This document shows, piece by piece, positions 20-52,359 of a stretch of 64,000 nt of DNA (its first letter is position 1; every line of letters starts with the position of its first letter). The position numbers were made by a program, and so were the translations under genes. Location of the stretch: the NCBI GenBank assembly GCA_029261055.1, contig JAJDCA010000003.1, positions 3,641 to 67,640 on the forward strand, written 5' to 3'. Origin of the DNA: Candidatus Omnitrophota bacterium. GTDB taxonomy: Bacteria; Omnitrophota; Gorgyraeia; Zapsychrales; Zapsychraceae. Under the pieces are notes generated by a model. That model ran no database searches and was not told where the DNA came from. It worked only from the letters and a program-made list of their open reading frames with translations.

Positions 20-568
20 TTGTCTAAGGAGATGATTTGTTTGGACAGGCAAAAAGAGGAAAAAATTGTGACGCCTGAGGTTGTGCGTACTGAGAAGGTT
101 TCAAAGTCTTCTGAGGTAACCAAAATGGCAGAGCTCGAAGAAGCTTTGCGGGTTGTAGAAGAAGAAAGGGTTAAGCAAGAAGAGGTTGTTGCAAATTCAA
201 ATCAAGAGGCTGAAACGATTGCAGTTACAGGGGTTGATTCGAAGGAACCAAATTTTAAATCGTTATCGCCAAAAATGCGGGGGGTTATAAAGGAAGAAAT
301 AAAAGAGTTTATTTCTACCAAGTTCATTATCCAAGCGACCAATGCTAAGACGGTATATGTTACAGGTAGTTTTAATGACTGGTCTTTGGATAATGCTTGC
401 CGTTTGAGGGGGGATAACGGAACGTGGGAGGTTGATATTTCCTTGAAGCCTGGTCTTTACAAATATCAATTTATTGTGGATGGTATATGGATGGAGGACC
501 CCGGTAATGAGCGCAAAGAGCGCAATTCTTTTGGGGACATTAACTCTCTTGTTGAGGTAACGGTTTAG
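20..568 (+). CDS. CBM48 / AMPK-beta glycogen-binding-domain protein with a charged Glu/Lys-rich N-terminal region
   Basis: The C-terminal ~85 aa (VYVTGSFNDWS...LKPGLYKYQFIVDGIWMEDPGN) match the AMPK1_CBM/CBM48 signature. The start may be the internal ATG at 32, which follows AAGGAG. Confidence 0.7.
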   Translation: MSKEMICLDRQKEEKIVTPEVVRTEKVSKSSEVTKMAELEEALRVVEEERVKQEEVVANSNQEAETIAVTGVDSKEPNFKSLSPKMRGVIKEEIKEFISTKFIIQATNAKTVYVTGSFNDWSLDNACRLRGDNGTWEVDISLKPGLYKYQFIVDGIWMEDPGNERKERNSFGDINSLVEVTV

Positions 569-894
569 TGGGTAAGAAATTACCCTGTGAGTCCACGCAG
601 GTTTTGGAGGGGAAAATATTTGCTGTTTTAGCTTACCTTTCAATCTTATGTATCCTTCCGCTTATTTTTAAAAAAAATAATGCTTTTGTTCTCCAGCATG
701 GAAAGCAGGGCTTGGTAATTTTTGTTGGTGAGGTGGCTGTTTTTATTCTCCACATCATGCTTGGTGTGTGGTTTTTACGGTTAGGAATATTTGTTCTTGG
801 GGTACTTTCTTTTATTGGTCTTATGGCTGCCCTCAAAGGCGTTTATATTCGTCTTCCAATAGTTTCTAATATCGCAGATAATATAATTTTATAA
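568..894 (+). CDS. small integral membrane protein (DUF4870-like, 3 TM)
   Basis: Hydrophobic helices are present. The motif YLSILCILPLIF...FVLQHGKQGLVIF resembles the DUF4870 family. It is translationally coupled to the upstream ORF. Confidence 0.45.
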   Translation: MGKKLPCESTQVLEGKIFAVLAYLSILCILPLIFKKNNAFVLQHGKQGLVIFVGEVAVFILHIMLGVWFLRLGIFVLGVLSFIGLMAALKGVYIRLPIVSNIADNIIL

Positions 895-1005
895 GCATTG
901 TGGCTTTGCAGAAGTGGGCTTGTGCAAATGGTCATGAATGTGGTATCCTTAATACAGAGAGGTGGAGGGGCTTAAAATAGCATTTCTCCGGTAGGTATGC
1001 TTTCA

Positions 1006-1512
1006 ATGAAAAATAATTTTAACAATTTAGGGCAAAGTATTATTGAATACATGTTGCTTTTTGCATGTATTGTATTTGTTTTAATATTCTTTCTTGCACC
1101 TAAAGGTCAATTTTCTACGTCTGTCAACAAAGTATTAGATCAATCTATTTCTAGCATTGAGTGCATGGCCCGTTCTGTTTGTTATGAAAAGCTTGATATT
1201 CAATGTCAGCCTGTGTGCGGTAATGGCTGCTGTGAAGCAGGCGAAAAGATGAAAAATACGAGTTTATTTTGTCCAAAGGATTGTAAGGATGAAATTCGTC
1301 GTGAATATTGTGGTAATGGGGTGTGTAGTCGAAGAGAGGGGCGGGGGTTTTGTTTTAATTATTGTACGCTAGATTGTGGCCCGTGTCCTTGGAAGTGTGG
1401 AAATGGAGATATTGAGCCAGGTGAGCAGTGCGATGATGATAACACTATTGTAGGGGATGGGTGTGATGGGCAGTGTCAATGTGAACCTGCTGGGAGTTGT
1501 CCTTCTCCGTAA
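1006..1512 (+). CDS. prepilin-like (class III signal: MKNNFNNLG|QSIIE) protein with Myxococcus-type cysteine-rich repeats
   Basis: The N-terminus has a short basic leader, a Gly cleavage site, Glu at +5 and a hydrophobic helix. It is followed by three CGNGxCExGE...C...DC / GEQCDDDN..GDGCDGQC repeats. Confidence 0.6.
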   Translation: MKNNFNNLGQSIIEYMLLFACIVFVLIFFLAPKGQFSTSVNKVLDQSISSIECMARSVCYEKLDIQCQPVCGNGCCEAGEKMKNTSLFCPKDCKDEIRREYCGNGVCSRREGRGFCFNYCTLDCGPCPWKCGNGDIEPGEQCDDDNTIVGDGCDGQCQCEPAGSCPSP

Positions 1513-1522
1513 TGTAAGGAAA

Positions 1523-1822
1523 TTATCGCCTTTTGAGGTCTCGTAATTTTTGTTTTTGGCTATCCCGCATGTCACGGATACGCTGTTTTTGAGTCCGCAT
1601 CATTTCTTTTTGACGCGCTTTTATTTGTCGAATATTATCTTTCAAGTCATTATGGCGTTTTGAGGAGTCAACTGCATTGAATCTCGGAGATGTTCCTTTA
1701 TATACTTTTTTAATGGCATTGACAAAGCCTAAAAAAAGGGCGAAGGACACGGCAACTCCAAAAATTAGTAATATAACGCCGTCAAAATCTTTCATGATGT
1801 TATAAGTATAAGGTGAAATCAT
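1523..1822 (-). CDS. hypothetical membrane-anchored protein with a highly basic coiled tail
   Basis: One TM helix (ILLIFGVAVSFALFLGFV) is followed by a Lys/Arg/Gln-rich tail. I recognise no family. Confidence 0.35.
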   Translation of the reverse strand: MISPYTYNIMKDFDGVILLIFGVAVSFALFLGFVNAIKKVYKGTSPRFNAVDSSKRHNDLKDNIRQIKARQKEMMRTQKQRIRDMRDSQKQKLRDLKRR

Positions 1823-1905
1823 GTTTTTATCAATTTTATATTAAAGAATTCGAACGCGAGGTGTTATAAGTATTTATTCTAATAATTAGAAAAAAGGGGA
1901 GAAGC

Positions 1906-2226
1906 ATGGATAATCAATATGACTTTAAAAGCGAATGGGAAAAAACTAAAAAGCAGCTAATTAAATTTAGTAAAGAAGCTGTAGAAACGGTTAAGAAAGG
2001 CGAAAAGGAGCTTATTAAGTTTTCGCAAAAAAGTAAAGTTCATATAGACGCTACAGCGGTTAGTTTAAAGAAGGAAAAGTTGTTTTATCTTATCGGAAAA
2101 GAATGTGTGAAAATAAAAATGCCCGAAAAGTTGACCCCGAAACTTCAGAAGCTTTTAGAAGAGTACAAGAAAATCGACAAGCAGCAAAAGGCTTTGCAAG
2201 GAAAAATTAAATCCGCAAAAAAGTAG
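1906..2226 (+). CDS. hypothetical Lys/Glu-rich protein
   Basis: A GGGGAG ribosome-binding site sits 6 nt upstream of the ATG. I recognise no family. Confidence 0.4.
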   Translation: MDNQYDFKSEWEKTKKQLIKFSKEAVETVKKGEKELIKFSQKSKVHIDATAVSLKKEKLFYLIGKECVKIKMPEKLTPKLQKLLEEYKKIDKQQKALQGKIKSAKK

Positions 2227-8168: not shown

Positions 8169-10484
8169 TTATTTTTTATTTATTGAGTGGAGTGCTTTTA
8201 ATACTTTATCCGGTGTAAAGGGGAGTTCTTTTAATCGAATCCCAACAGCGTCTTCAATAGCATTCGCAATGGCCGCTGAAGTTGGTAAAAGTGAAGCCTC
8301 CCCCATGCCCTTGGCTCCAAATGGTCCATGAGGATCATTGGTCTCAATCAAAATACTTTCCATGGGAGGTATTCCGATAGATCGAGGTAATCGGTAATGG
8401 GCAAAATTGGCATTCGCCACATGGCCTTGTTTAAATTGCAAATTTTCCATAAAGGTGTAGCCGATACCCATAGCCAGAGAACCTTCGATTTGTCCTTCCA
8501 CGGATTGGGGATTAATGGCTTTACCAATATCATGAGCATCATATAATTTAAGAATTTTGACTTCACCGGTTTCTTTATTAACTTCTACTTCAGCAATTTG
8601 TGCTTCAAATCCATAACTGCCTGAAACATTCCCCTCCCCTGTTCTGAAATCAATCGGTGTTGTGTTGGGATTATAACTTCCCCGCCCCATGATTTGTTTT
8701 CCATAATTGAAGGAAAAGCATAATTCAACAGCTTTTTCAAAATTCATTAATGTTGTATTATTTTTTGTATTAATTACTTCTTCAGCTTTGATATCCAGGT
8801 CGTCTCGGTTGAGGTTGTGTTCTTTGGCGACAATTTCAAGAATTTGATTTTTGGCATCTCGAGCGGCAAGGATTGTGGCATTGCCTGAAATAAAGGTTAC
8901 GCGGCTCGCAAAGCTTCCGGTATCAAAAGGGGTTGTTTCCGTATCTCCCGATGTGCATTTTATACGATCGTAACTTACACCTAATTCTTGAGCGGCAATT
9001 TGGGAAAGGGCTGTGTTGGAACCCTGCCCTGTGTCTGCGGCTCCGGTAAAGAAATATACGGAGCAATCTTCTTCGACTTTAACAATAGAGCCTGCAGATT
9101 CATGCGATTTATACATCTTAGACCCCATGACATCCGCCGCAATGCCGATACCGATTCCACGACAGAGACTTTTTTGTTGGCCTCTCTTTTTATTCCATTC
9201 AGCTGCAGCCGTAGCTTTTTCAATACATTCACGTAAACCGTTTGAAGAAATTTTCATTTGATTAATAGTTGTCATGTTCGGGGTGGTGATATTTTTGAGG
9301 CGAAATTCTACGGGGTCCATATTAATACCTTTGGCCAGAAGATCCATGTGTGATTCAATCGCAAAACCTGCCTGCACCCCACCGAAGCCGCGCATAGCAC
9401 CGCTTATAGGCGTATTTGTGTATACCCTATACCCTGTGATACGGAAATGTTTGATTTGATAAACCATAAAAATTCGCATAATCGCAGCGGCTAAAACGGT
9501 TGGGCCATAACTGCAGTAGGCGCCCCCGTCAGCAATAACTTCACCAGTTATGGCTACAAGCGTACCGTCTTTTTTAACGCCGGACTTAATTTTGTATATA
9601 ATGCCATGCTTTCGTCGGGAGGCAATAAATTCTTCTTCGCGGCTGTACGTGATTTTGACCGGTAATCCTCCGGATTTTTTGGACAATAGACAGGCAGAAA
9701 AATCCATTGGTAACATTTCTAATTTGCTGCCAAATCCACCGCCGACAGACATTTTAATAACACGAATGTTATTGAGGTCCATTTTAAATGTTTTTGCCAG
9801 TGCTTCTCTGCATTTAAAAGGCGCTTGGCTGGAGGCCCATAAAGTGACCTTATTGGAAAATAATTCCCACTGTCCAACACACACATGCGGCTCCATGCAA
9901 GCATGATGAGCGGCTGGGGTGTAAAATGTATCTTCGCGGACGTAATCAGCTTCTTTTAAAGTTCGGTCAGGGTTTCCAAAATTAACCGGAAGAATAACGG
10001 CAATGTTGTTAAGGGATTCATGAATCTGTGGGGCATTTGGTTTCATGGCCTCTTGAACATCAAAAACAGCCGGTAAAATTTTATATTTAATATCAATTAA
10101 TTTAAGAGCCTCAAGGGCTGTTTCTTCATCAACGGCCGCTACGGCTCCAATTTCATCTCCAATGTAACGAACCTTTTCTGACTCCAAGGCCATTTGATCT
10201 ATGGTATGAGGAAAAAAGTGTTCGTTAGATCCAAATTTAATTTTGTCGGTGTCTTTGGCCGTAATAACCGCACGAACACCCGGTAAGGCCTCGGCTTTGG
10301 ATGTATCAATGCTTAGGATTTTGGCATGAGGATGCGGTGAGCGGATCATTTTGCCAACCAGCATATTGGCAAATCCAATATCGTAAACGTATTTTGCTTG
10401 GCCGGTAACCATTCCCTTTCCATCAATTCTAGGAACGCTTTTTCCAACAGGATCAGTATATTTTTTATCAATAGACTTCGGCAT
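8169..10484 (-). CDS. xanthine dehydrogenase/aldehyde oxidoreductase family molybdopterin-binding large subunit
   Basis: 771 aa, with a/b hammerhead and MoCo-binding domains (GGGFGSK, GQIEGS motifs). The CO-dehydrogenase AYRCSFR motif is absent. Confidence 0.9.
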   Translation of the reverse strand: MPKSIDKKYTDPVGKSVPRIDGKGMVTGQAKYVYDIGFANMLVGKMIRSPHPHAKILSIDTSKAEALPGVRAVITAKDTDKIKFGSNEHFFPHTIDQMALESEKVRYIGDEIGAVAAVDEETALEALKLIDIKYKILPAVFDVQEAMKPNAPQIHESLNNIAVILPVNFGNPDRTLKEADYVREDTFYTPAAHHACMEPHVCVGQWELFSNKVTLWASSQAPFKCREALAKTFKMDLNNIRVIKMSVGGGFGSKLEMLPMDFSACLLSKKSGGLPVKITYSREEEFIASRRKHGIIYKIKSGVKKDGTLVAITGEVIADGGAYCSYGPTVLAAAIMRIFMVYQIKHFRITGYRVYTNTPISGAMRGFGGVQAGFAIESHMDLLAKGINMDPVEFRLKNITTPNMTTINQMKISSNGLRECIEKATAAAEWNKKRGQQKSLCRGIGIGIAADVMGSKMYKSHESAGSIVKVEEDCSVYFFTGAADTGQGSNTALSQIAAQELGVSYDRIKCTSGDTETTPFDTGSFASRVTFISGNATILAARDAKNQILEIVAKEHNLNRDDLDIKAEEVINTKNNTTLMNFEKAVELCFSFNYGKQIMGRGSYNPNTTPIDFRTGEGNVSGSYGFEAQIAEVEVNKETGEVKILKLYDAHDIGKAINPQSVEGQIEGSLAMGIGYTFMENLQFKQGHVANANFAHYRLPRSIGIPPMESILIETNDPHGPFGAKGMGEASLLPTSAAIANAIEDAVGIRLKELPFTPDKVLKALHSINKK

Positions 10485-10963
10485 TAGTTAATTTTTTTGT
10501 TTTTTTCCTTCATTATTTTTCCTGCTTCTTGAATAGCTTCAAAAATTTTTGGATAACCAGCACATCGACAGAGATTGCCGTCTAAGGCATATTCAATTTC
10601 TTTTTGAGTCGGTTCAGGGTTTTGATCCAATAAAGCTTTAGAAGACATGATCATGCCTGGCATACAGAACCCACATTGAACAGCTCCTTGATCTAAATAA
10701 GCTTGTTGAATCGGATGAAGCTGATTTCCGTCAGCCAAACCTTCAATTGTCGTCACTTCTCCCCCATCTAATGAAGCCGCCAGTGTAATACATGCAAGGA
10801 TGGCTTTACCTTTAACCGTAACGGTACAGGCCCCGCACTCTGCTTCTTCGCACGCGGTTTTTGTCCCGGTCAGGCCTAAGTGATCTCTCAAGACTTCCAA
10901 GAGAGTTTCATGGCCTTTGAGGTCCAATTGATATTTTTGTGTATTGATGGTTAATGTAATCAT
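10484..10963 (-). CDS. [2Fe-2S]-binding small subunit of the xanthine-dehydrogenase-family enzyme
   Basis: CGACTV...C and QCGFCMPG...CRCAGY ferredoxin motifs. Confidence 0.9.
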   Translation of the reverse strand: MITLTINTQKYQLDLKGHETLLEVLRDHLGLTGTKTACEEAECGACTVTVKGKAILACITLAASLDGGEVTTIEGLADGNQLHPIQQAYLDQGAVQCGFCMPGMIMSSKALLDQNPEPTQKEIEYALDGNLCRCAGYPKIFEAIQEAGKIMKEKNKKIN

Positions 10964-11808
10964 TTTTTTTCTATAATTTTTTCAATGGCTTTTCGGATAC
11001 TTACCCGAAACATATGCTGTTTATATTCATCGCTGCGCGTATCATAAATGTCATCGGTGATATGGTCAAGAGCCGATTGGGGTGTTTCCTTTGAAGCCGT
11101 AGTGTTATTTAAGAAGTTTTCTAAAATATGATCGCGTTGAGCAAAGCCTATGCCATTATTTACCGCAACAATAGTATTATTAAATTGCCCACTATTAAAT
11201 TGTGTTTTTAAACATACGGTCAATAAAGGAATATCTACATGAATAGTTTTTTTAACGCGTTGATAAGATAAAGAAATGTTTTTGTCATGGGGGATAGAGA
11301 TTTGAAAAAGAATTTTACGTGTTTTTGCCCCTTTTTGAAAAAAATCTTCGGCGGGTATAATTTCTTCTTTGCCATCTTCTCCCATAAAATGAAGTTTAGC
11401 CTCTAGAGCCGTCATAATAGCCGGCATTTCGGTCCATGTATAACGACACGTTAAATTTCCTCCGATGGTGGCCATATTACGAATAGGTGTTGTCGAAATA
11501 TCTTGGGCCGCTATTTTGAGAATGGCTAGATTATCTGTTAGGTCTGGTGAATTTAAAAGTTCTGCGATCGTGGTCATGGATTTGATGACACATTGATTCT
11601 TATCTATATGGATTCCTTTTAAATTATCAATTTTGTTAAGGTTGATGATATGGCGAGGTGTTTTGTTACCTTTGCGTTTTAAAAGTTTGAGCGTATTAAA
11701 TAAAAATGTCCCTCCAGCCTGCAGCTTAACATGGTCAAGCTCTGCATAAAATTTGGCAGCCTCTGTGAGGGTTTTTGGTGAATGGAGTGTAAATGGATTT
11801 AAAAGCAT
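10960..11808 (-). CDS. FAD-binding medium subunit of the xanthine-dehydrogenase-family enzyme
   Basis: FAD-binding-5 domain (LQAGGTFLF, ATIGGNL). Confidence 0.85.
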   Translation of the reverse strand: MLLNPFTLHSPKTLTEAAKFYAELDHVKLQAGGTFLFNTLKLLKRKGNKTPRHIINLNKIDNLKGIHIDKNQCVIKSMTTIAELLNSPDLTDNLAILKIAAQDISTTPIRNMATIGGNLTCRYTWTEMPAIMTALEAKLHFMGEDGKEEIIPAEDFFQKGAKTRKILFQISIPHDKNISLSYQRVKKTIHVDIPLLTVCLKTQFNSGQFNNTIVAVNNGIGFAQRDHILENFLNNTTASKETPQSALDHITDDIYDTRSDEYKQHMFRVSIRKAIEKIIEKK

Positions 11809-11809
11809 T

Positions 11810-12490
11810 TTATAATAAGTTAATCACTTCTTTTGGTAATCGTTTTAATTCTTGATTGCCTAAAACTTTAATTGACCAGCGTAGAAGTTTTAATTTTTGT
11901 TTTAATTTTGGTCCTGGCTCGGTGATATTAGCCAGGCGTTTTCGCATTAAAAAAAGGATTTTACGTAAGGTATTAAAAATAATTCTGGCTTCTCGGGGAC
12001 GATTATGGCCATTATCTATGATAGCTTCAAGGTGCGCAAAGGCAATTTCATTAATGGTCTCATTGTAATGGTCGAGTTTTTGGATGAGGGCTGGAACCAT
12101 AGCTTTGAAATAATGGTACCGATCCATATGACATAAAGTATGCATAATTTCGATTTGTACAAATGGTGAATTTGCTCTGTTAAGTCGGCGGAGCAAAATT
12201 TTGATCACTTTCTTTTTTTCTTTTGAGAAAACTTCTTGACCGAACTTATCGTTAAAGACACGCACGGCGGCAGCTCCTTTGTAAGAACTGAGTGTGGTAT
12301 CTTTAATGATGGCTAAAAGGATTTCTTTGGGAAGGTCAGTGTACTTAGCTATGTAACCTTGTAGAAGCATCTTGTCATCGAAAATTGTGTAGGATTGTGG
12401 GTCTTGTGAAAATGCTATACGGGGAGATATAAGGCATAAAAAGATTGTTAATAATAAGGTTAGTTTTATAAAGCCAGGATATTTTTTCAT
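11810..12490 (-). CDS. hypothetical secreted protein
   Basis: Signal peptide. It is translationally coupled to nadC upstream and to the FAD subunit downstream. Confidence 0.4.
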   Translation of the reverse strand: MKKYPGFIKLTLLLTIFLCLISPRIAFSQDPQSYTIFDDKMLLQGYIAKYTDLPKEILLAIIKDTTLSSYKGAAAVRVFNDKFGQEVFSKEKKKVIKILLRRLNRANSPFVQIEIMHTLCHMDRYHYFKAMVPALIQKLDHYNETINEIAFAHLEAIIDNGHNRPREARIIFNTLRKILFLMRKRLANITEPGPKLKQKLKLLRWSIKVLGNQELKRLPKEVINLL

Positions 12491-13335
12491 TGTATAACCA
12501 TGGACACATCCACCGCTTGATGGGAATGTGTTAAGGCTCCGATTGAAATGCGATCAACCCCGGTTTTGGCGGCAGCGCGAACATTTTTAAGCGTAATCCC
12601 ACCTGAGGCTTCCAATAAAGGACGTTGCCCTTTGGGTAATTTTTTTGTGAGAACAACGGCTTGTTTCATTTGATGGCTAGACATATTATCCAGCAGAATA
12701 ATATCTGGATTTGCGTTTAAAGCATCTTTAAATTGTATGAGGTCGTCCACTTCTATTTCAATATATTTTTTTGTTTTTTGTCGAAGGGTATCAATAGCTT
12801 CTTGAATAGATAATTGAGGATAACACACTTGTAGATGGTTATCTTTGATAAGAACCATTTCACTCAGGTTCGTTCTGTGGCTCTTTCCTCCTCCGCATCG
12901 AACGGCATATTTTTCCAGTTCCCGTAGGCCAGGAGTTGTTTTGCGTGTATCCATAATTTTTGTTTTGAGTGGGTGTATTTTTTTAACAAAGGTATGTGTC
13001 TGTGTTGCAACACCGGAAAGGTAACTCAGAAAGTTCAAAGCCGTCCGTTCGGTTGTGAGTAGCGCGCGTGTATTTCCTTTAATTGAAGCAATTTGAGTGT
13101 TTTTTTGTACATAATCGCCATCTTTGGCTAATGCTTGAAATTGGATGTTTTTGTCCAGTTTTTGAAAAATTTTGCGGACAATGTCAGTACCGCAAATCAT
13201 AGCGGCCTGTTGAACAAGGATATAGGCTTCGGAAGTATGATTTTTAGGGACCAAACCGTTCGTTGTAATATCCTGGTCTGTTGCATCTTCTTCCAGTGCT
13301 TGAGAAATAATAAGATCACAATTTTTTAGATTCAT
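12487..13335 (-). CDS. nadC: nicotinate-nucleotide pyrophosphorylase (quinolinate phosphoribosyltransferase)
   Basis: QPRTase signature (TRKTTPGLR, CGGG.SHR, IKDNH). Confidence 0.9.
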   Translation of the reverse strand: MNLKNCDLIISQALEEDATDQDITTNGLVPKNHTSEAYILVQQAAMICGTDIVRKIFQKLDKNIQFQALAKDGDYVQKNTQIASIKGNTRALLTTERTALNFLSYLSGVATQTHTFVKKIHPLKTKIMDTRKTTPGLRELEKYAVRCGGGKSHRTNLSEMVLIKDNHLQVCYPQLSIQEAIDTLRQKTKKYIEIEVDDLIQFKDALNANPDIILLDNMSSHQMKQAVVLTKKLPKGQRPLLEASGGITLKNVRAAAKTGVDRISIGALTHSHQAVDVSMVIQ

Positions 13336-13403
13336 AGGAAGGAGATTATATTATCGCTCGAGGGTTGTTGCAAGGGAATTTTCGTGGATATACGGTTTTA
13401 TTT

Positions 13404-14612
13404 TTATTTGGAAATTATCTGTTTATTTTCAACAGGTGGTTGATTTTTTGGAATTTGAAATCGAAATATAGATCCTCCTTTAGGATTAGGTTCGGCCCAT
13501 ATTGTTCCATGATGATCAAAGATGATATTTTTTGCTATGGAGAGGCCTAATCCTGTGCCACCAGCACCTGTTTTAGATTTGCTACTTTGGACAAAGGCAT
13601 CAAAAATAATTTCATATTCAGTTTCAGGTATTCCTATCCCCTCATCAATTATAGAAACGATAAAATATTGATTATCTTGCGCGATTTCAACAAAGATTTT
13701 CTTTTTATTTTGTGAGAATTTAATAGCATTTGATAATAAGTTTTGCATAACTTGTATAATTTTATCTATGTCAATTGCGGCTGTGTCATTGAAATTTGGT
13801 TCTGTGAATTGAATAATTATTTCTTTTTCTTTGCATAATGATTTTGATTCAGTAATAATTTTCTTTATAGCAAGTGAAAGTTGAGTTTCTTGGAATTTAT
13901 ACACTATTTTTCCTGTCTCTAGTTTTGATAAATCTAATAATTCGTTAAGCAAGTCCAGTAAGTTTTCACCGCAGAGCTTAATTTCAGAAAAATATTTTTT
14001 TAATTTCTTTTTATCTATCCATTCGATACGATCCAAACCAAACTTAGCGAAACTTAAAATGCCGTGCAATGGAGTTCGTAGTTCATGGCTTATATTAGCC
14101 AGGAATTCTGATTTGGCTTGGTTGGCTTTTTCAGCGCGGATTTTTTCTTGCATAACTTGATGTGTGCGCTTTAAAACTTCTTTTTCGAATTGACTTTTGT
14201 ACTCTAGAAGTTCTTTTTTTCGTTCGTTTTCGATTTGTTGAGTTTTTTTATTTAATTCAACATATCGAATTGCTTTTTTAATAGTGTATTCAAGGATAAT
14301 GGGATCAAAGGGTTTAATCACAAAATCCAAAGCGCCTTTTTTTAATGCTTCTATGGCTAATTGTACGGTGCCTTCTGCTGTGATCATAATACATTTAAAA
14401 TCAAGGTTTATTTTATTTATGGCCTCAAGGGTCATTAATCCATCCATCTCTGGCATTCGTTGGTCAAGCAAAATAAGATCTGGAGATAAGTCTTTGAGGA
14501 TTTGAAGCGCTTCCATTCCGCTTTCAGCTTCAGAAACTTCATATTCATCAAGAGTGTATTTTATGAGGTGGCGATTATTTTTATCATCATCGACAATGAG
14601 TATTTTTTTCAT
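13404..14612 (-). CDS. hybrid response regulator-histidine kinase (N-terminal receiver + HisKA + HATPase_c)
   Basis: MKKILIVDDD...DLILLDQRMPEMDG receiver. H-box SHELRTPLHGI. G-box GTGLGLSIAK. Confidence 0.85.
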   Translation of the reverse strand: MKKILIVDDDKNNRHLIKYTLDEYEVSEAESGMEALQILKDLSPDLILLDQRMPEMDGLMTLEAINKINLDFKCIMITAEGTVQLAIEALKKGALDFVIKPFDPIILEYTIKKAIRYVELNKKTQQIENERKKELLEYKSQFEKEVLKRTHQVMQEKIRAEKANQAKSEFLANISHELRTPLHGILSFAKFGLDRIEWIDKKKLKKYFSEIKLCGENLLDLLNELLDLSKLETGKIVYKFQETQLSLAIKKIITESKSLCKEKEIIIQFTEPNFNDTAAIDIDKIIQVMQNLLSNAIKFSQNKKKIFVEIAQDNQYFIVSIIDEGIGIPETEYEIIFDAFVQSSKSKTGAGGTGLGLSIAKNIIFDHHGTIWAEPNPKGGSIFRFQIPKNQPPVENKQIISK

Positions 14613-44040: not shown

Positions 44041-47000
44041 CTATCCAATATGGGGTGACGCATCAATCTCTTTGCGACAAAATTTCTGTCGATAGCGATC
44101 CAACCAGCTTACATCACCTTGCGTCGGTGACCCAAAAAGTCCGGGCGCCGTACGGCTAAAATCACTATCCATATCAGACTCCGACAGGCCCAAAAGCGGG
44201 AGCATACTGGGGATGCGGATCACGTTAAGAATCACCGGTACCACCCCATCAACGCGCATAGCCGCATCCGGCTGCTGCGCAAACGGCAGAACAATTCCAT
44301 TACCATCACGCTTCACCTCAAACTTCAACATCGCCGGATCCAGGTTAATACCCCCTGTTTTATTGGGCTGGGATACCTTAACCCTATTTTCCAGCATAGC
44401 ATTATCAGCGAGGTTTTGGAGGAGACTAATAATGTTTGATTCTTTTAGCAATGGTGAATCCTTAGAATACGTTATTTGTTGTTCATTCAAGATATTTTTT
44501 AATTTTTGATTTTGATTATTAAAATCAAAATTTAAATTAAGGTCTTTCTGAGCTTGATCAAGAATTTTTTGTCCGTAGGCCTTTTTTGCCAGGCGTACAC
44601 TCCTTTGAACAGATTTTATCATGTCTACAATATCGCCTTTATTAGCTTCCGCATTTTTTATAACGAGGTCCATAAACATCTGTTTGGATGCAAAAATCTC
44701 CAAACGTTCTTCACTAAATTTATTTTTATGTAATTCAATAAAAATATTAAGATATGATTTGAGATTGGGAAGTTCTTTCTTTAGTTCTATAAGATTATTG
44801 GTTTCAGATACCTCCACTTGTTCAATGTTTTTAAATGTTAGAAGAAATCCATCTTCCGGTATCTTTTTGTTCATTGCATCAACGATCGATGAAACGTGGT
44901 TTGTAATGTCGCTAGACATGGAATTGTCTACGCCCTTCATTATAATTTGATTATTAAATACATCTGCCGCTTCCCTTACATCCGTATGCTTCGCAATTCT
45001 ATTAATATCGTTATTAATGATAGGAATTTGGAAAAGTATTTCTCTTTTAAACGCATCTTCATTTTTTCGAAAGTCCCCTTTATAAGTACCCTTCCGTAGT
45101 TCATCTTGCTTAATTTTGTTTTCAGGGCCAATTACAGTTTCCTCCACAATCTTAAAATGGGTATGTCCTTCCTCTGGAAAAAACTGGGCGGATACTCTAA
45201 AGTACAAATCTTTTGTTTTTTGATTTTCTGGATTCTTTCTTGAATATATTATCATAAGTTCTTTCTCTACATCATTAGACTGAAAATTTGTATCCGACTC
45301 CTGCGTTATTATGACCTTAGTCAACGTTGCTACACCAGGAAGGGCGTTGCTGCCGCCTTCTAATAATTTCAGAAAAGAACCTCCACCTGTTGAAATAAAT
45401 TTTATTCCTTTAATTTCAAACTGGTTAATCGCTGTAACAGAGTCACCTCCCCCGGTTACGGTTAGGTTGTCCGCTAAGGCAAGGCTCTTTCCTACATCCT
45501 TTGTCCCGTTTTGAGCGAATGAAAGGACATCAAATGCACCCATAGGGCCATTCCAAAAAATAGATTGTTCTGGATTTTCTTCCGATATTTTTTGAATTTC
45601 AGATGTAAATAATTGAACCGTTTTCGGGCCGATATCCACCATCATCCAACCATCCTCAACCCCTTCTCTTATATCTGTTATAATTCTATTATTTGCTCCT
45701 TCCTCAAATTTATCTGCCACAACCCCATCTATCGGTAAAATAATTTTATCGGAGTATTTTCTAAATAATTCTTTAGCTAATTCAACATCTTTATCTTGTG
45801 CCAGCGAAGCGCCCATGTCAATTTTTTGGGCCTTTAAAAACGCATTAGCCATAGCGCCGCCTATTAAAAGTTTTTTTAAATTAGGGTTTTTTAATAATGT
45901 TTCTAGCATGATGATTTTATCTGAAACTTTACTACCCCCCACCACAGCCAGACCAGTGTTCGTTCGGACTTTTTCAGCCATTTTTAATTCTTTATCTAAA
46001 AGAAGTCCGGATACTCTGATGGGCACAATACCTTCAGCACCTGTTACCGAGGCATGATTACGATGCGCGGCCCCAAACGCATCGTTAATAAACACATCGA
46101 CACCTTTGTATAATTTTTGTGAAAATTGACTGTGTGTTTCACGGGCTTTTTCAACATTTTCTTTCGCTATCTGGATCACATGGGGGTCACTACTTTTTTT
46201 TGCAGCTTTAAGGACATCTTCAGCCTCGGATAAAATTGTCTCCGCTTTATTAAAACGAACATTTTCAAGGACAATGATAGAGTTTTTGAACGCTTTTTCA
46301 TCAACGCCCGGTCTTTGCATATAAGCTTCAACATCCGCCATTGTTTTAAAGATAGGGTTATAATAAATACGGCCCAAGCCATCGTCCCATAATTTTTCAG
46401 CTATATTTTTAACGACTTTTTTAAGAGAAAGGGTCGGGTCTTCCTGTCCTTCCGGCCGACCCATATGAGCCGTAATAATTATCATCTCCGGGGACTTATC
46501 CATGAGATATTTAATTGTTGGAATGGATTCTGCAATACGCGTATCATCCGTTATTTCCCCCGTTTTTTCATCAATTGGAACATTCAACTCCAACCGCATG
46601 GCCACCCGTTTGTCCTTTAACTCTTCGTCAGATAAATCTTTGAGGTTTTTTGTCGAAGCCATAGCATTATCCCTTAGGTTTACTGTGTCACCAGCTAATA
46701 ATCGTCGCACATCATCGGCAACGGCTCTGTTGTCTGATGCCGCATCTCCTCCTCTGATATGTTGCAACAAATAGTATTCAACGCCTTTATTTTTGGAGGT
46801 ACCCAAGGAATATGTTATGAGTCCCTCATGGGTGGTTACTTGTTTGGCATTTTCAGGAATATTGTTAAATAATTCTTTATCATTTTTAGCTAAGTCAAGG
46901 TTAACAAATGGTTCAAAAATATGGTTTAACACTAATTTGGAGGTTTTGACAATGGATGGATTTGATTTATTTGATTCGATTGTTGTCAAAAGATCGTGCA

Positions 47001-49269
47001 GTTCATCTGCGTTGATGTCAATATTATTTATACTTGACGTAATTTTATTATTTATTTTTATTAAAGTTGTTGTTTTGATATTTTTTTCAATTTCAGAAGT
47101 ATTTTGTACAGAATTCGTATTTGTATAAATTGCATCAATTTGGTTTTTTTGATGACTTTCCAATCCATCAATCTGCTGCGCTAATTCTTCAAGCGGCTTC
47201 TGGACTTCTTCAATCATCATAGAATGATCCACTATCCATTGAAATTTATCTGAAGGTATCTTTCCCTCAAATTTTTCAACAAACTGATTAACAAGATCTA
47301 TGTTATTTGATATTTCTTGAGTAACGTCTTCTGATTCAAGCATTTGCTCTATTTTTTTGGTTAATGGGTTTGTTTCATACAATTCTTTAAAATCATTTTG
47401 AAGGTTAGTTACCATATTTCGTACTATTCCTTCTGTGAATTTGTTTTGTTTTTCTGCAACTATATCTGTTAATGACTTTATATCTTCCGGTCGTTCTTGC
47501 TTTGCGTTAGCTACCGCCGTAATGAAATTTTGAACGAGAGTTACTTCTTCATTTTTCGCAGAAATGAAGCCATGCTCTTCGGGATTGTTAAAAAAAGTGT
47601 TTTTTCTTTTTTTTACGATCGCAGCATACGAGGGTATTTTTTGTAGAAAATTATTATTATATTGAGATTCAATATCCTGCACAATATTTTTTAATGCCTG
47701 TAGAGAAGGGGATCTTGTGTATCTGATATGCTTTACATCCATCACTTTTTCAATAAAAATTTTAACAGCATTTAATTCTTTAGGTTCAACAAAGATTTGT
47801 TCCTTCATTTTTTGATGATAACTATCATCTCCGGAAGAGTTAATATATTTATTGCGTAGCTCTTTTATTCCTTTGTAAGCAGTAAAAATATTGTAGCCGG
47901 TATACTTCTTGTCTAATGTATTTAAAATAGTTTCTAATTCTTTAATGGAAAGGGTAGTGCCTTGTATTATCAACCTCGCACGCATTGTTTCCAAATCTTC
48001 GGGCAATTGAGAATTATCAACCTGTTGTAGAAAGGTTGCTTTTGATATTTCCGTTATCGCCGCATTATTAACAATCCCTAGCGTATTGGTCGCCACTTGC
48101 CAGTTTATTCCGGTTTGAAGTTCTTCAACCTCTAGTTTTGTAACGGTCATAGAACTGTCAAGGATCATTGCGACATCTGTAATTTTTGTTCCACCGGAGA
48201 AATATTTGCGGGGGATGATTTCTTGGGTGGCCGGGTCATAGTCTTCTTTAATCAGGTCGTAAACGCCTTTTTTAAAGGATTCCACGTATTGGTCGTAAAT
48301 TTTTTGATTAATCTGTTTATCTTGTGTGTCTACACCCAAAGTTTTATTTTGATCCACAATCATATGACCCAATAAACTTTCTTTGAGGTTTTTTTTGTAC
48401 CAGGTAGCCAGAATCACTGAATTGTAGACTTGACGCAATTGAGAAAACGTGGTGCCTTGGTTGACTTCCTTTTCAATGGCCGGGATCAGGACCTCTCGAA
48501 CGACATCAGAGGAAACTCCACTGACAATTTTAGCTTCATCCGTCACAAGGCTGTCTAGACCGAATGATTCTTTATCCATATTTTCTTGTAGGGCCACATA
48601 ATCTTCTTCCAGCATTACTTTAAGGTAACTGTCTGTCACAAACACGCTGGATTCCCGCTCATAAACTGAGGCTTTTTCAGGCACAATCCATATTTTATTA
48701 AAGGTATTCATCGGAATATCCGTGGTGCCAAACCGGGCATAGGCTTGTTCATGCACTTTATTCCAAAAATCAGCGCCTAATTCCTCTTCAGGGTACATTA
48801 AGGAGGCGGTTACCTGTTTGAGCATGTAGTCTTGAGCCAAAAGGTCGCGGCCCATTTGGGTATCGCCAAAATTTTCCGGAATAATACGGTCAGATTCATA
48901 CGGGGAAAGGTTTACCCACATATCTTCATGGGGAATAGTTAATGAAGCTAGAAAATATTTGATTAAACGGGTGGATTCGGCCTTTAATTCATCGCCTTCA
49001 ATGTCTGTATCCCCTGTATTGATCATAAAATTGATACGCAGTGGATCATTCGCATGAAAGGTAAGCCCATTCATCAAGGGTGGCGTAAAAACGTCGCTTA
49101 AGGGGATCATCGTTCCGGGAATCGGCAAATTTAGTACATTTTGTGGCGCGGTCTGCGCTCGGACCACGGAAGGTGGCATAATGGTTGTAGCGCTGAAAGT
49201 TATAGCCATTAAAAGAGATATGACTCTGTAGGGTAATCGTATGCATCGTTTTTGCATGGACAAGTTCAT
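44041..49269 (-). CDS. 1742-aa secreted/membrane-anchored giant protein containing an intact phosphoglycerate kinase domain (approx. 45300-46620) flanked by uncharacterised regions
   Basis: N-terminal signal/anchor. The PGK motifs are all present: KRVAMRLELNVP, HMGRP, VLENVRFNKAE, NDAFGAAHRNHAS, VVGGSKVSDKI, FWNGPMGAFD and TGGGDSVTA. Confidence 0.8.
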   Translation of the reverse strand: MNLSMQKRCIRLPYRVISLLMAITFSATTIMPPSVVRAQTAPQNVLNLPIPGTMIPLSDVFTPPLMNGLTFHANDPLRINFMINTGDTDIEGDELKAESTRLIKYFLASLTIPHEDMWVNLSPYESDRIIPENFGDTQMGRDLLAQDYMLKQVTASLMYPEEELGADFWNKVHEQAYARFGTTDIPMNTFNKIWIVPEKASVYERESSVFVTDSYLKVMLEEDYVALQENMDKESFGLDSLVTDEAKIVSGVSSDVVREVLIPAIEKEVNQGTTFSQLRQVYNSVILATWYKKNLKESLLGHMIVDQNKTLGVDTQDKQINQKIYDQYVESFKKGVYDLIKEDYDPATQEIIPRKYFSGGTKITDVAMILDSSMTVTKLEVEELQTGINWQVATNTLGIVNNAAITEISKATFLQQVDNSQLPEDLETMRARLIIQGTTLSIKELETILNTLDKKYTGYNIFTAYKGIKELRNKYINSSGDDSYHQKMKEQIFVEPKELNAVKIFIEKVMDVKHIRYTRSPSLQALKNIVQDIESQYNNNFLQKIPSYAAIVKKRKNTFFNNPEEHGFISAKNEEVTLVQNFITAVANAKQERPEDIKSLTDIVAEKQNKFTEGIVRNMVTNLQNDFKELYETNPLTKKIEQMLESEDVTQEISNNIDLVNQFVEKFEGKIPSDKFQWIVDHSMMIEEVQKPLEELAQQIDGLESHQKNQIDAIYTNTNSVQNTSEIEKNIKTTTLIKINNKITSSINNIDINADELHDLLTTIESNKSNPSIVKTSKLVLNHIFEPFVNLDLAKNDKELFNNIPENAKQVTTHEGLITYSLGTSKNKGVEYYLLQHIRGGDAASDNRAVADDVRRLLAGDTVNLRDNAMASTKNLKDLSDEELKDKRVAMRLELNVPIDEKTGEITDDTRIAESIPTIKYLMDKSPEMIIITAHMGRPEGQEDPTLSLKKVVKNIAEKLWDDGLGRIYYNPIFKTMADVEAYMQRPGVDEKAFKNSIIVLENVRFNKAETILSEAEDVLKAAKKSSDPHVIQIAKENVEKARETHSQFSQKLYKGVDVFINDAFGAAHRNHASVTGAEGIVPIRVSGLLLDKELKMAEKVRTNTGLAVVGGSKVSDKIIMLETLLKNPNLKKLLIGGAMANAFLKAQKIDMGASLAQDKDVELAKELFRKYSDKIILPIDGVVADKFEEGANNRIITDIREGVEDGWMMVDIGPKTVQLFTSEIQKISEENPEQSIFWNGPMGAFDVLSFAQNGTKDVGKSLALADNLTVTGGGDSVTAINQFEIKGIKFISTGGGSFLKLLEGGSNALPGVATLTKVIITQESDTNFQSNDVEKELMIIYSRKNPENQKTKDLYFRVSAQFFPEEGHTHFKIVEETVIGPENKIKQDELRKGTYKGDFRKNEDAFKREILFQIPIINNDINRIAKHTDVREAADVFNNQIIMKGVDNSMSSDITNHVSSIVDAMNKKIPEDGFLLTFKNIEQVEVSETNNLIELKKELPNLKSYLNIFIELHKNKFSEERLEIFASKQMFMDLVIKNAEANKGDIVDMIKSVQRSVRLAKKAYGQKILDQAQKDLNLNFDFNNQNQKLKNILNEQQITYSKDSPLLKESNIISLLQNLADNAMLENRVKVSQPNKTGGINLDPAMLKFEVKRDGNGIVLPFAQQPDAAMRVDGVVPVILNVIRIPSMLPLLGLSESDMDSDFSRTAPGLFGSPTQGDVSWLDRYRQKFCRKEIDASPHIG

Positions 49270-51698: not shown

Positions 51699-51953
51699 AT
51701 GATTATGAAAGTTTTTAATAAAGGTCAGGTTGTTATTCCAGCACGTATTCGTAAGACTTTAGGGATTGAAATAGGAGATGTGGTGGATGTAGAAATTAAT
51801 CCACAAAAACGTAGTTTAGAGCTTAAGGTAACCGATCAAAAAAAAGCAAAGGCTCTTGCCGGTTGTTTTCGAAAATATAAAAAAAACATACCATTTCCTT
51901 CTCGTAAGAAAATGCATGAAACCTTTACAAAAGGATTGATGAATGAAAAGTAA
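51699..51953 (+). CDS. AbrB/MazE-type (SpoVT_AbrB) antitoxin, VapB-like
   Basis: Swapped-hairpin N-terminus (KGQVVIPARIRKTLGIEIGDVVDVEI). It overlaps the downstream PIN gene by 11 nt. Confidence 0.7.
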   Translation: MIMKVFNKGQVVIPARIRKTLGIEIGDVVDVEINPQKRSLELKVTDQKKAKALAGCFRKYKKNIPFPSRKKMHETFTKGLMNEK

Positions 51954-52359
51954 GTTAATGGATACAAATGTTATTGTGCGTTATTTTGTAGAAGATCCAG
52001 TTAAGGTGCATTCAAAGTTTAAAGGGGTTTTTTCGTTTTTTCCAAAGGTAGAATCAGGTGCTGTGAGTGTGGAACTTCCGGATTTAGTTGTTTTTGAAGT
52101 TTTTTTTGTTTTGACCAACATTTATAAAATTCCACAAGTTGATGCAGCACAAAAACTTAGTGATCTTATTGCGTTTCGAGGGTTTTTGATGCAGAATAAA
52201 CCTCTTATGACCTCTTGTCTTCAAAAATTACAAAAAGAAAAAATCGATTTAGTTGATGCTTATTTGCTTTCTCTTGCGAAACAAAAAGGAATTTTGGCTG
52301 TATATTCTTTTGACAAAGATTTATCCAAACACGGCCTGCAATTGGCTGATGTGAAGTAG
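51943..52359 (+). CDS. PIN-domain toxin (VapC-like)
   Basis: Acidic residues at MDTNVIV, ...DAYL... and SFDKD, with the right spacing for PIN. Confidence 0.75.
   Translation: MKSKLMDTNVIVRYFVEDPVKVHSKFKGVFSFFPKVESGAVSVELPDLVVFEVFFVLTNIYKIPQVDAAQKLSDLIAFRGFLMQNKPLMTSCLQKLQKEKIDLVDAYLLSLAKQKGILAVYSFDKDLSKHGLQLADVK

What the first reader, a model, noticed from the sequence alone, without database searches (positions are those of the whole stretch)
1006..1512. Type-IV-prepilin-like N-terminus fused to Myxococcus-type cysteine-rich repeats
MKNNFNNLG|QSIIEYMLLFACIVFVLIFF is a class III (prepilin peptidase) signal: short leader, Gly at -1, Glu at +5 and a hydrophobic helix. The mature part is not a pilin fold. 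Instead it carries three CGNG..E.GE.CDDDN...GDGC repeats, with about 30 Cys in 130 aa. A pilin-anchored, disulfide-rich module would be an unusual minor pilin or pseudopilin tip, or a pilus-displayed binding domain.
Basis: partly seen in the sequence, partly recalled or inferred. Interest (0 to 1): 0.55.

Follow-up and report, generated by a model that had tools for sequence, protein, structure and literature searches.

The report
Flp-type pilin with cysteine-rich tail
This small gene of an uncultured Omnitrophota bacterium encodes what looks like a complete miniature Tad (Flp-type) pilin with a short disulfide-rich repeat tail grafted on, one member of an undescribed family whose tails range from 30 to over 1,100 residues and may be pilus-displayed adhesion modules.

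Summary
The ORF is real (1006..1512 +, 168 aa), but the description is only partly right. It has 21 Cys, not about 30. Only the last unit (aa 130-165) is a Myxococcus-type repeat (TIGR02232). The first two CGNG units are a different motif, CG[DN]GxC...CxxDC.

The N-terminus fits G|QxxxEY plus a hydrophobic helix but matches no Pfam model itself. Its meaning comes from relatives. Every Omnitrophota relative examined has a [GA]QxxxE[YF] gene at the same syntenic slot, 90 to 1,199 aa long. One N-terminus passes Pfam Class_IIIsignal.

A profile of the N-terminal 60 residues matches stand-alone 63-89-aa Flp-like pilins from Omnitrophota Tad loci (hhalign 98%, E 2.5e-13). Those loci encode RcpC, a secretin, a TadZ-TadA fusion and TadB/TadC. 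They also carry Cys-rich pilin-like genes of 142-1,410 aa next to tadB. One of these has the same CGDGxC...CPxDC units.

Best reading: a stand-alone modular Flp-type pilin or minor pilin. A prepilin peptidase would cut after Gly9, and the tail would be displayed on or at the tip of a Tad pilus.

Processing and assembly are inferred. No prepilin peptidase or Tad gene lies in the window, and the rest of the genome could not be searched. I rate it a new variant of a known kind (modular pilins), of moderate interest.

The parts
1006..1512 (+). Coding sequence of the 168-aa modular Flp-type pilin-like protein. An alternative start at 997 gives 171 aa.
   Evidence: ORF list and translation. Both forms are on record as P0001 (168 aa) and P0391 (171 aa).
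990..995 (+). Possible ribosome-binding site, GGTAGG, 10 nt upstream of the ATG at 1006.
   Evidence: Read directly from the sequence. This is inference only.
1006..1032 (+). Predicted leader peptide MKNNFNNLG (aa 1-9). The predicted prepilin-peptidase cut is after Gly9.
   Evidence: In the 120 best relatives, -1 is G (99) or A (21) and +1 is Q in all 120. The register matches the mature N-terminus of Caulobacter Tad pilin 8u1k. The leader is atypical: one basic residue and Leu at -2.
1033..1095 (+). Mature N-terminal hydrophobic helix QSIIEYMLLFACIVFVLIFFL (aa 10-30), with Glu at +5 (codon 1045-1047) and Tyr at +6.
   Evidence: AF2 with an alignment gives a helix at 5-30 with pLDDT about 93. 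Glu is invariant in alignments A2 and A4.
1108..1191 (+). Second helix of the Flp-like module (aa 35-62; GQFSTSVNKVLDQSISSIECMARSVCYE). It follows the break APKG.
   Evidence: AF2 helix at 35-62, pLDDT 77-89. It aligns with the C-terminal half of stand-alone 63-68-aa Flp-like pilins.
1216..1284 (+). Cys unit 1, CGNGCCEAGEKMKNTSLFCPKDC (aa 71-93). It is of the CG[DN]GxC...CxxDC type and is conserved in the family as CGNGCCEPGE..C..DC.
   Evidence: Alignment A1. The same unit type occurs in L004, L021 and P0021.
1309..1377 (+). Cys unit 2, CGNGVCSRREGRGFCFNYCTLDC (aa 102-124). It is the same type as unit 1, but degenerate.
   Evidence: Pattern match and shuffle control.
1393..1500 (+). Cys unit 3 (aa 130-165), KCGNGDIEPGEQCDDDNTIVGDGCDGQCQCEPAGSC. 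This is the only true Myxococcus-type cysteine-rich acidic repeat.
   Evidence: TIGR02232 at 35.2 bits against a cut-off of 20.8. All 5,220 phmmer hits outside the protein itself run through this stretch.
20..894 (+). Synteny anchors upstream: the 3' part of a ParA/CbiA-CBM48 ATPase gene (20-568) and a 108-aa MamF/MmsF-like membrane protein (568-894). No functional link to the pilin-like gene has been shown.
1523..2226 (.). Synteny anchors downstream: a 99-aa membrane protein on the - strand (1523-1822) and a 106-aa protein on the + strand (1906-2226). Both are conserved after the pilin-like gene in relatives.

Best explanation
The gene encodes a stand-alone modular Flp-type (Tad, type IVc) pilin-like protein of an Omnitrophota bacterium.

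Shown:
- Residues 1-62 are homologous, end to end, to the 63-89-aa Flp-like pilins that head the pilin-gene arrays of Omnitrophota Tad loci.
- The remaining ~106 residues are a compact tail with 20 Cys, an even number that would allow 10 disulfides.
- The tail is built from two CG[DN]GxC...CxxDC units and one TIGR02232 repeat.
- The same slot in related genomes holds homologues whose tails range from one unit (90 aa in total) to about 1,100 residues.

Inferred mechanism:
1. The preprotein inserts into the inner membrane by its hydrophobic helix.
2. A prepilin peptidase (TadV/CpaA-like or PilD) removes MKNNFNNLG after Gly9, on the cytoplasmic side.
3. The tail folds and oxidises in the periplasm.
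4. The Flp-like helix, with Glu+5, is taken up by the Tad machinery (TadA/B/C, RcpA). The subunit is used as a low-abundance or tip subunit.
5. The C-terminal Cys-rich module is thereby exposed on the pilus surface.

The extreme length and sequence variation of the tails between close relatives fits a surface-exposed binding or adhesion module in a phylum thought to live by attaching to host cells.
For: 1. The motif [GA]|Q-x3-E-[YF] plus a hydrophobic helix, with a 6-16-aa leader, is invariant in the 120 best relatives. The window protein conforms.
2. All seven distinct Omnitrophota loci examined carry such a gene in the same slot: the window (L001 is a shorter Logan contig of the same locus), L004, L006, L008, L009-L011, L012/L013 and L014. 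The window protein's N-terminus is 38% identical and 64% similar to that of L004 over 56 ungapped residues (E 5e-16).
3. PF04021 Class_IIIsignal is the only Pfam hit for 4 of 6 further N-termini (14-20 bits; the window's own gives no hit). The N-terminus of L004 also hits PF04021, at 25.1 bits against a gathering score of 23.7, together with a weak Flp_Fap hit (19.4 bits).
4. A profile search found 306 relatives, mostly 102-111-aa Omnitrophota proteins. Some are named 'Flp pilus assembly pilin Flp' or 'UPF0333 family' by JGI.
5. Two of these relatives lie inside Tad loci that encode RcpC, a secretin, a CbiA+T2SSE (TadZ-TadA) fusion and two T2SSF genes (TadB/C).
6. hhalign of the family's N-module (A4) against the stand-alone 63-89-aa Flp-like pilins of Tad loci (A5) gives 98% probability, E 2.5e-13, over 54 columns.
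7. Against the PDB, the profile's top hits are Caulobacter Tad pilin PilA (8u1k) and an Flp pilin (8u2b). Their Glu5 is in register, but the E-values of 0.09-0.15 are not significant.
8. AF2 with an alignment gives helix 5-30, a break, then helix 35-62, at pLDDT 77-93.
9. Cys-rich class-III-signal genes of 142, 157, 197 and 1,410 aa sit directly upstream of tadB in Tad loci. The 1,410-aa one carries tandem CGDGxC...CPxDC units, like units 1 and 2 here, plus a Sushi repeat.
10. Tad and type IVa pilus systems are widespread in Omnitrophota (PMC10066038). Stand-alone class III genes outside the main locus are well known in archaea (PMC4858521). Modular pilins with grafted adhesive domains are an established concept (PMC10191384).
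Against: - No Tad, type IV pilus or prepilin-peptidase gene is in the 64-kb window. No A24 motif was found in any fetched Tad locus either. The enzyme that would process these proteins is therefore unidentified, and its presence in this genome is untested.
- The window protein's own N-terminus matches no Pfam or NCBIfam model.
- Its leader is the weakest in the family, with one basic residue and Leu at -2. Lys or Arg occupies -2 in 109 of 120 relatives.
- The gene sits in a housekeeping-looking neighbourhood, not a pilus locus.
- The tail could not be modelled (pLDDT below 50) and has no solved relative.
- Pilus incorporation, tip location and adhesion are all inference.
Confidence: 0.55

Rival explanations
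1. It is an uncleaved signal-anchor protein, or is processed through Sec and signal peptidase I. The hydrophobic N-terminus merely tethers a small disulfide-rich domain in the periplasm or exports it there, with no link to pili.
For: The gene is not in a pilus locus. No peptidase or Tad gene is in the window. The window protein's N-terminus hits no class III, Flp or N-methyl model. The leader has only one basic residue.
Against: - The [GA]Q...E[YF] motif lies at a fixed distance before the helix and is invariant across the family. It is shared with proteins inside Tad loci. A plain anchor would not need it.
- No conserved AxA-type signal peptidase I site follows the helix. The sequences there are LAPKG|Q, LGPNG|F, SQNG|L and TENG|L (read from alignment A4).
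- The 16-21-residue hydrophobic stretch is long for a Sec signal peptide.
Confidence: 0.2
2. It is a Tad minor pilin or pseudopilin (TadE/TadF-like role) that primes or caps assembly. The Cys-rich tail would be a structural cap, not a binding module. Alternatively, it is a class-III-signal surface protein that is processed but never polymerised, like the archaeal 'bindosome' proteins.
For: Its size (168 aa) is typical of TadE/TadF. Tad loci of the phylum hold 8-10 different pilin-like genes, most of them presumably minor. Class III signals on non-pilin proteins are known in archaea (PMC4858521).
Against: There is no hit to PF07811 TadE. The N-module resembles the shortest, Flp-like pilins rather than the 105-126-aa minor-pilin-like set. 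The huge variation in tail length among orthologues (90 to 1,199 aa) is not expected of a conserved assembly factor.
Confidence: 0.2
3. It is a decaying remnant: a truncated leftover of a ~1,000-aa Cys-rich gene that no longer functions.
For: Orthologues in L004, L008/L009 and L012 are 990 or more to 1,199 aa. This one is 168 aa with a degenerate unit 2 and an atypical leader.
Against: The frame is intact, with an even number (20) of extracytoplasmic Cys. It ends 11 nt before the next, convergent gene, with no Cys-rich remnants downstream. Still shorter intact 90-aa versions exist in two other genomes (P0271, P0272), one of them beside a full-length copy.
Confidence: 0.05

Closest known systems
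Flp/Fap pilins of Tad (type IVc) pili, e.g. Caulobacter PilA (PDB 8u1k) and Aggregatibacter Flp1
   Same: Short leader, cleavage-site Gly, the GxxxxEY motif with Glu at +5 and Tyr at +6, a hydrophobic helix followed by a Gly-containing break and a short second helix, and no globular head. Homologues lie in loci with RcpC, RcpA, TadZ/TadA and TadB/C.
   Different: Known Flp pilins are about 45-60 residues when mature and end after the second helix. This one carries a 106-residue tail with 20 Cys, and its homologues carry up to about 1,100 residues. The +1 residue is always Gln, and -1 is Ala in a sixth of relatives, which is closer to archaeal class III signals. PF04964 is not reached. The gene lies outside a Tad locus.
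Modular type IV pilins, e.g. Streptococcus sanguinis PilB and PilC (reviewed in PMC10191384)
   Same: The architecture: a pilin module with an unrelated, probably adhesive, domain grafted to its C-terminus.
   Different: The known examples belong to type IVa pili and have a globular pilin head. Here the carrier is a head-less Flp-type pilin, and the graft is an array of small disulfide-rich repeats of very variable length. No binding has been shown.
Myxococcus cysteine-rich repeat proteins (TIGR02232 / DUF4215)
   Same: Unit 3 (aa 130-165) is a bona fide repeat. In P0021, the CG[DN]GxC...CPxDC unit type of units 1 and 2 alternates with it.
   Different: Typical members are large secreted or lipoprotein-type proteins with 5-45 repeats. 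None of the 149 best hits has a class III N-terminus. This protein has a single repeat. The function of the repeat is unknown.
Archaeal class III signal peptide proteins (PF04021 / DUF361 / UPF0333; EppA substrates with Gln at +1)
   Same: The [KR]-G-Q...E-[YF] pattern. PF04021 is the only Pfam family hit by the relatives. Stand-alone genes outside the main locus are common.
   Different: The organism is a diderm bacterium with bacterial Tad loci that include a secretin and RcpC. The window protein itself does not reach the model.

Membership tests
Type IV pilin superfamily (class III signal peptide proteins) | Short leader ending in Gly (rarely Ala) at -1 | tested here: met
   The leader MKNNFNNLG| is 9 aa long. 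Relatives have 6-16 aa, with G at -1 in 99 and A in 21. The leader is only weakly basic.
Type IV pilin superfamily (class III signal peptide proteins) | Glu at +5, followed by about 20 hydrophobic residues that form the N-terminal helix | tested here: met
   Glu14 is at +5. It is followed by YMLLFACIVFVLIFFL. AF2 predicts a helix at 5-30 with pLDDT 93.
Type IV pilin superfamily (class III signal peptide proteins) | Cleavage by an A24 prepilin peptidase encoded in the genome | not testable with these tools
   No G.GD.K motif and no Pfam A24 hit in the window or in loci L001-L023.
Type IV pilin superfamily (class III signal peptide proteins) | Genetic association with a type IV filament assembly machinery | tested here: inconclusive
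   Not met for this gene, since no such gene is in the 64-kb window. Met for its homologues P0371 and P0296 and for the Flp-like pilins in L015, L017 and L019, which lie in Tad loci.
Pfam PF04021 Class_IIIsignal | Score at or above the gathering threshold of 23.7 bits | tested here: not met
   The window protein gives no hit at E up to 10. The syntenic homologue L004 scores 25.1 bits as an N-terminal fragment, and others score 14-20 bits.
Pfam PF04964 Flp_Fap | Score at or above the gathering threshold of 32.2 bits | tested here: not met
   No hit for the window protein. L004's N-terminus scores 19.4 bits. The GxxxxEY spacing is nevertheless present.
Omnitrophota Tad-locus Flp-like pilins (63-89 aa; an operational family defined here) | Full-length homology of the N-module to these pilins | tested here: met
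   hhalign of A4 against A5 gives 98% probability, E 2.5e-13, over 54 columns. BLASTP gives 31-37% identity over 49-58 aa.
TadE/TadF pseudopilins (PF07811) | Match to the TadE-like N-terminal model | tested here: not met
   No PF07811 hit for the window protein or any relative scanned.
TIGR02232 myxo_disulf_rpt / PF13948 DUF4215 | Repeat scoring above the curated cut-off | tested here: met
   TIGR02232 scores 35.2 bits against 20.8 for aa 130-165 only. PF13948 scores 14.8 against 27, which is not met. Units 1 and 2 do not match.
Modular pilins | A pilin module plus a grafted non-pilin domain that is exposed on the filament and binds a ligand | tested here: inconclusive
   The architecture is met. 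Exposure and binding cannot be tested here.

The most novel reading that the evidence does not exclude
Omnitrophota graft fast-evolving disulfide-rich repeat arrays (from about 30 to about 1,350 residues) directly onto head-less Flp pilins. Their Tad pili would then carry built-in, interchangeable host- or prey-recognition modules. The conserved stand-alone slot beside the ParA-CBM48 gene would be one of the places where such variants are kept and swapped. That would make this a new class of modular type IVc pilin and a candidate determinant of host range in these ultra-small, host-dependent bacteria.
Probability: 0.3. Interest if true: 0.75.

Novelty: new variant of a known kind. Interest (0 to 1): 0.55.

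Why it matters
Omnitrophota are uncultured, ultra-small bacteria thought to live as predators or parasites that attach to other cells. Tad and type IV pili are their main candidate attachment devices (PMC10066038), but what gives those pili specificity is unknown.

A family of Flp-type pilins with grafted, highly variable Cys-rich modules offers concrete, testable candidates for the adhesive or recognition end of the pilus.

It would also extend the 'modular pilin' idea from type IVa pili to the minimalist Tad pilins. That raises a mechanical question: how does a subunit with a tail of up to 1,100 residues get assembled and passed through the secretin?

On the practical side, several of these genes are missing from public annotations, where reverse-strand ORFs were called instead.

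Tried and rejected
- **Word-indexed homologue search with the whole protein.** It found only the protein itself.
- **Exhaustive phmmer against 1.84 billion representatives.** It gave 5,220 hits, all through the C-terminal TIGR02232 repeat in giant multi-repeat proteins.
- **Genome-contig scan with aa 1-129.** The only hit was a spurious match to a YidC N-terminus (FFLAPKGQ) in an Endomicrobiellum MAG.
- **Pfam and NCBIfam on the isolated N-terminus.** Nothing was found.
- **AF2.** The single-sequence run had mean pLDDT 49. The run with a 35-sequence alignment reached 58, but only the two N-terminal helices are confident and the tail is not.
- **Structure and PDB searches.** Foldseek against the PDB gave no match. 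A sequence search of the PDB with the whole protein gave noise only.
- **A24 peptidase motif (G.GD.K) scan.** The window and 23 loci gave nothing.
- **Literature search for PilD or prepilin peptidase in Omnitrophota.** Nothing useful turned up.
- **Look-ups aimed at the source assembly.** They returned only the short Logan contig.
- **A small home-made HMM of the CGDGxC...CxxDC unit.** It gave weak domain scores (6.8 and 9.2 bits), too short to be a real test, so I rely on the pattern and shuffle control instead.
- **Rejected ideas.** It is not a RiPP or bacteriocin precursor: it has a hydrophobic membrane helix, and the only radical SAM gene is 16 kb away. It is not a classical GFTLIE type IVa or type II secretion pseudopilin, because the motif is wrong.

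Full report
**1. What is at 1006-1512**

An intact + strand ORF runs from the ATG at 1006 to the stop at 1510-1512 (168 aa). An upstream in-frame ATG at 997 would add MLS. Both versions are on record, as P0001 and P0391. The leaders of homologues (MKIKSF.., MKLKHL.., MSKINKK..) favour 1006.

The window has 37% G+C. Its best-conserved neighbour gene is 60-68% identical to proteins of Candidatus Omnitrophota MAGs. The organism is a diderm: the window and the adjoining contig encode a TonB-dependent receptor and an AlgE-type porin.

**2. Checking the observation**

The N-terminus is as described: MKNNFNNLG|QSIIEY, then 16 hydrophobic residues.

The tail is not as described. There are 21 Cys, not about 30: one in the helix and 20 in the last 116 residues. 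Three CGNG motifs occur at aa 71, 102 and 131. None of 20,000 shuffles reaches three.

Only the third unit has the CGNG..E.GE.CDDDN...GDGC sequence. It scores 35.2 bits on TIGR02232, against a cut-off of 20.8. Pfam DUF4215 stays below threshold.

Units 1 and 2 follow another pattern, CG[DN]GxC-x(5-14)-CxxDC. This pattern alternates with TIGR02232 repeats in proteins such as P0021. It turns up in 0.045% of shuffles. This is the only Cys-rich ORF in the window.

**3. No direct homologues, but a family found by synteny**

A word-indexed search found only the protein itself. An exhaustive phmmer run gave 5,220 hits, all through the last repeat in giant multi-repeat proteins. None of the top 149 has a pilin-like N-terminus.

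I therefore followed the conserved upstream genes into related genomes. These are an AlgE-like porin, a 191-aa membrane protein, a ParA/CbiA ATPase fused to CBM48, and a 105-108-aa MamF/MmsF-like membrane protein.

All seven distinct loci examined carry a [GA]QxxxE[YF] gene in the same slot:

| Locus | Size | Notes |
|---|---|---|
| window (L001 is a shorter Logan contig of the same locus) | 168 aa | the finding itself |
| L004 | 990 aa or more | 181 Cys, nine TIGR02232 repeats |
| L008, L009-L011 | 1,188-1,199 aa | about 200 Cys, a different 40-aa Cys repeat, Ala at -1 |
| L012/L013 | about 1,040 aa, plus a tandem 90-aa paralogue | the paralogue has a single CGNGCCEPGE..C..DC unit |
| L014, L006 | about 120-130 aa | not Cys-rich |

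The window protein and L004 share 38% identity and 64% similarity over the first 56 residues without gaps (E 5e-16). The first Cys unit (CGNGCCE[AP]GE) is conserved across the Cys-rich members.

In several NCBI MAGs the large genes were not called at all. Reverse-strand ORFs were annotated instead.

**4. What the N-terminus is**

The window protein's N-terminus hits no Pfam or NCBIfam model. Its relatives do:
- PF04021 Class_IIIsignal is the only Pfam hit for 4 of 6 further N-termini scanned (14-20 bits). Scanned on its own, the N-terminus of L004 scores 25.1 bits on PF04021, above the gathering score of 23.7, with a weaker Flp_Fap hit.
- A profile of the N-terminal 61 columns (A2) found 306 proteins. 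Nearly all are 102-111-aa Omnitrophota proteins, and JGI names some 'Flp pilus assembly pilin Flp' or 'UPF0333 family'.
- In the best 120, -1 is Gly (99) or Ala (21), +1 is Gln (120/120), +5 is Glu, +6 is Tyr or Phe, and the leader is 6-16 residues long.

Two of these relatives were traced to their contigs. Both lie in Tad loci. The gene order is RcpC, secretin, a 720-aa CbiA+T2SSE (TadZ-TadA) fusion, DUF192, eight to ten tandem class-III-signal genes, a 1,400-1,500-aa TadG-like protein, and two T2SSF genes (TadB, TadC).

Within those arrays, the 63-89-aa genes are the ones the window protein resembles. BLASTP gives 31-37% identity over 49-58 residues. An hhalign comparison of the Cys-rich family's N-module (A4) with those short pilins (A5) gives 98% probability, E 2.5e-13, over 54 columns.

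Against solved structures, the profile's best hits are Caulobacter Tad pilin PilA (8u1k) and an Flp pilin (8u2b). Glu5 is in the same register, but the scores are not significant.

AF2 with an alignment predicts helix 5-30, a break at APKG, and helix 35-62, at pLDDT 77-93.

So the first ~62 residues are not just a signal peptide. They are a whole Flp-like pilin.

**5. Are Cys-rich tails part of Tad biology in this phylum?**

A metagenome scan with TadB brought in five more loci. Together with L015, they show that the gene directly upstream of tadB is a Cys-rich protein with a class-III-type N-terminus and very variable length:

| Locus | Length | Cys |
|---|---|---|
| L019 | 142 aa | 10 |
| L020 | 157 aa | 12 |
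| L015 | 197 aa | 16 |
| L021 | 1,410 aa | 141 |

The L021 protein contains tandem CGDGxC...CPxDC units of the same type as units 1 and 2 here, and a Sushi repeat. In this phylum, Cys-rich modules on pilin-like N-termini are therefore a regular component of Tad loci. The window gene is a paralogous, stand-alone case.

**6. Mechanism (inferred)**

1. The preprotein inserts into the inner membrane through the hydrophobic helix.
2. A prepilin peptidase cuts after Gly9.
3. The 20-Cys tail folds oxidatively in the periplasm.
4. The Flp-like helix is recruited by TadA/B/C.
5. The tail is exposed on the pilus, probably as a rare or tip subunit.

From general knowledge of Flp filaments, the C-terminus faces outward, so a C-terminal graft is geometrically reasonable. 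A bulky tail argues for a tip or sparse position.

The variation in tail length among orthologues (one unit to about 1,100 residues) fits a surface-exposed recognition module. The literature supports the setting:
- Tad and type IVa pili are widespread in Omnitrophota and are proposed to mediate host attachment (PMC10066038).
- Modular pilins with grafted adhesive domains are established for type IVa pili (PMC10191384).
- Stand-alone class III genes away from the main locus are common in archaea (PMC4858521).

**7. What weakens this**

- No Tad, type IV pilus or A24 peptidase gene is in the window. No A24 motif is in any fetched Tad locus.
- The window protein's leader is the weakest in the family, with one basic residue and Leu at -2. 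Lys or Arg occupies -2 in 109 of 120 relatives. Bacterial Flp pilins such as Caulobacter PilA also lack a basic -2 residue (my own knowledge).
- The tail could not be modelled and has no solved relative.

**8. Rivals**

- **A plain signal anchor or Sec signal.** This is disfavoured because the [GA]Q...E[YF] motif is invariant and shared with Tad-locus pilins, and no AxA site follows the helix.
- **An assembly-only minor pilin, or a processed but non-polymerised surface protein.** This remains possible.
- **A decayed remnant.** This is unlikely. The frame is intact, the Cys count is even, and still shorter intact 90-aa versions exist.

**9. Novelty and verdict**

I found no description of Flp-type pilins with grafted Cys-rich repeat arrays in the searchable literature. 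The search covers open-access papers only.

The concept of a modular pilin is known, so I rate this as a new variant of a known kind. Interest is moderate at 0.55.

I am about 90% confident that the N-module is homologous to Tad-locus Flp-like pilins. I am about 55% confident that the protein is processed and pilus-associated as described.

Noticed in passing
window 44041-49269 (-): A 1,742-aa ORF with a signal-like N-terminus and a complete phosphoglycerate kinase domain at aa 880-1305 (PF00162, 345 bits). It sits next to rpsO and pnp. A giant PGK fusion is odd.
   Followed up: no
window 53226-63365 (-): A 3,379-aa protein with PKD domains, one of the very long ORFs typical of Omnitrophota.
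   Followed up: no
window 20-894 (+); L001, L004, L006, L008-L014: A gene block conserved across Omnitrophota: AlgE-like porin, 191-aa membrane protein, ParA/CbiA ATPase fused to a glycogen-binding CBM48/AMPK1_CBM domain, and a 105-108-aa MamF/MmsF-like membrane protein. The pilin-like gene always follows, sometimes after a Lys-rich ~185-aa protein. Its function is unknown.
   Followed up: partly
L008:8553-12119; L010:~10555-14154; L012:~10124-13255: In three NCBI MAG records the 1,000-1,200-aa Cys-rich pilin-like gene was not called. Shorter reverse-strand ORFs were annotated in its place.
   Followed up: partly
L015:1363-20324; L017:2691-20333; L019:17-11811: Omnitrophota Tad loci fuse TadZ and TadA into one ~720-aa protein, and a DUF192 gene always follows. 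They carry 8-10 tandem class-III-signal genes plus a 1,400-1,500-aa TadG-like protein. No A24 prepilin peptidase shows up within 20 kb.
   Followed up: partly
P0271-P0390 (relatives of the N-module): The cleavage-site residue at -1 is Ala in 21 of 120 and +1 is Gln in all 120. This pattern is closer to archaeal EppA-type class III signals than to classical bacterial prepilins.
   Followed up: partly
L021:5714-9946: A Tad-locus 1,410-aa pilin-like protein with 141 Cys combines CGDGxC...CPxDC units with a Sushi/SCR repeat (PF00084, 35 bits) and other Cys-rich repeat types.
   Followed up: partly
L013:10124-13555: Two paralogues sit in tandem: a ~1,040-aa Cys-rich pilin-like gene immediately followed by a 90-aa version with the same N-module and a single Cys unit.
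   Followed up: no
window 51699-52359 (+): A MazE/AbrB-type antitoxin and PIN-domain toxin pair.
   Followed up: no
L002:7391-8938: The YidC of an Endomicrobiellum MAG shares the string FFLAPKGQ with the window protein just after its first membrane helix. This is probably coincidence, but it produced the only genome-contig hit.
   Followed up: yes
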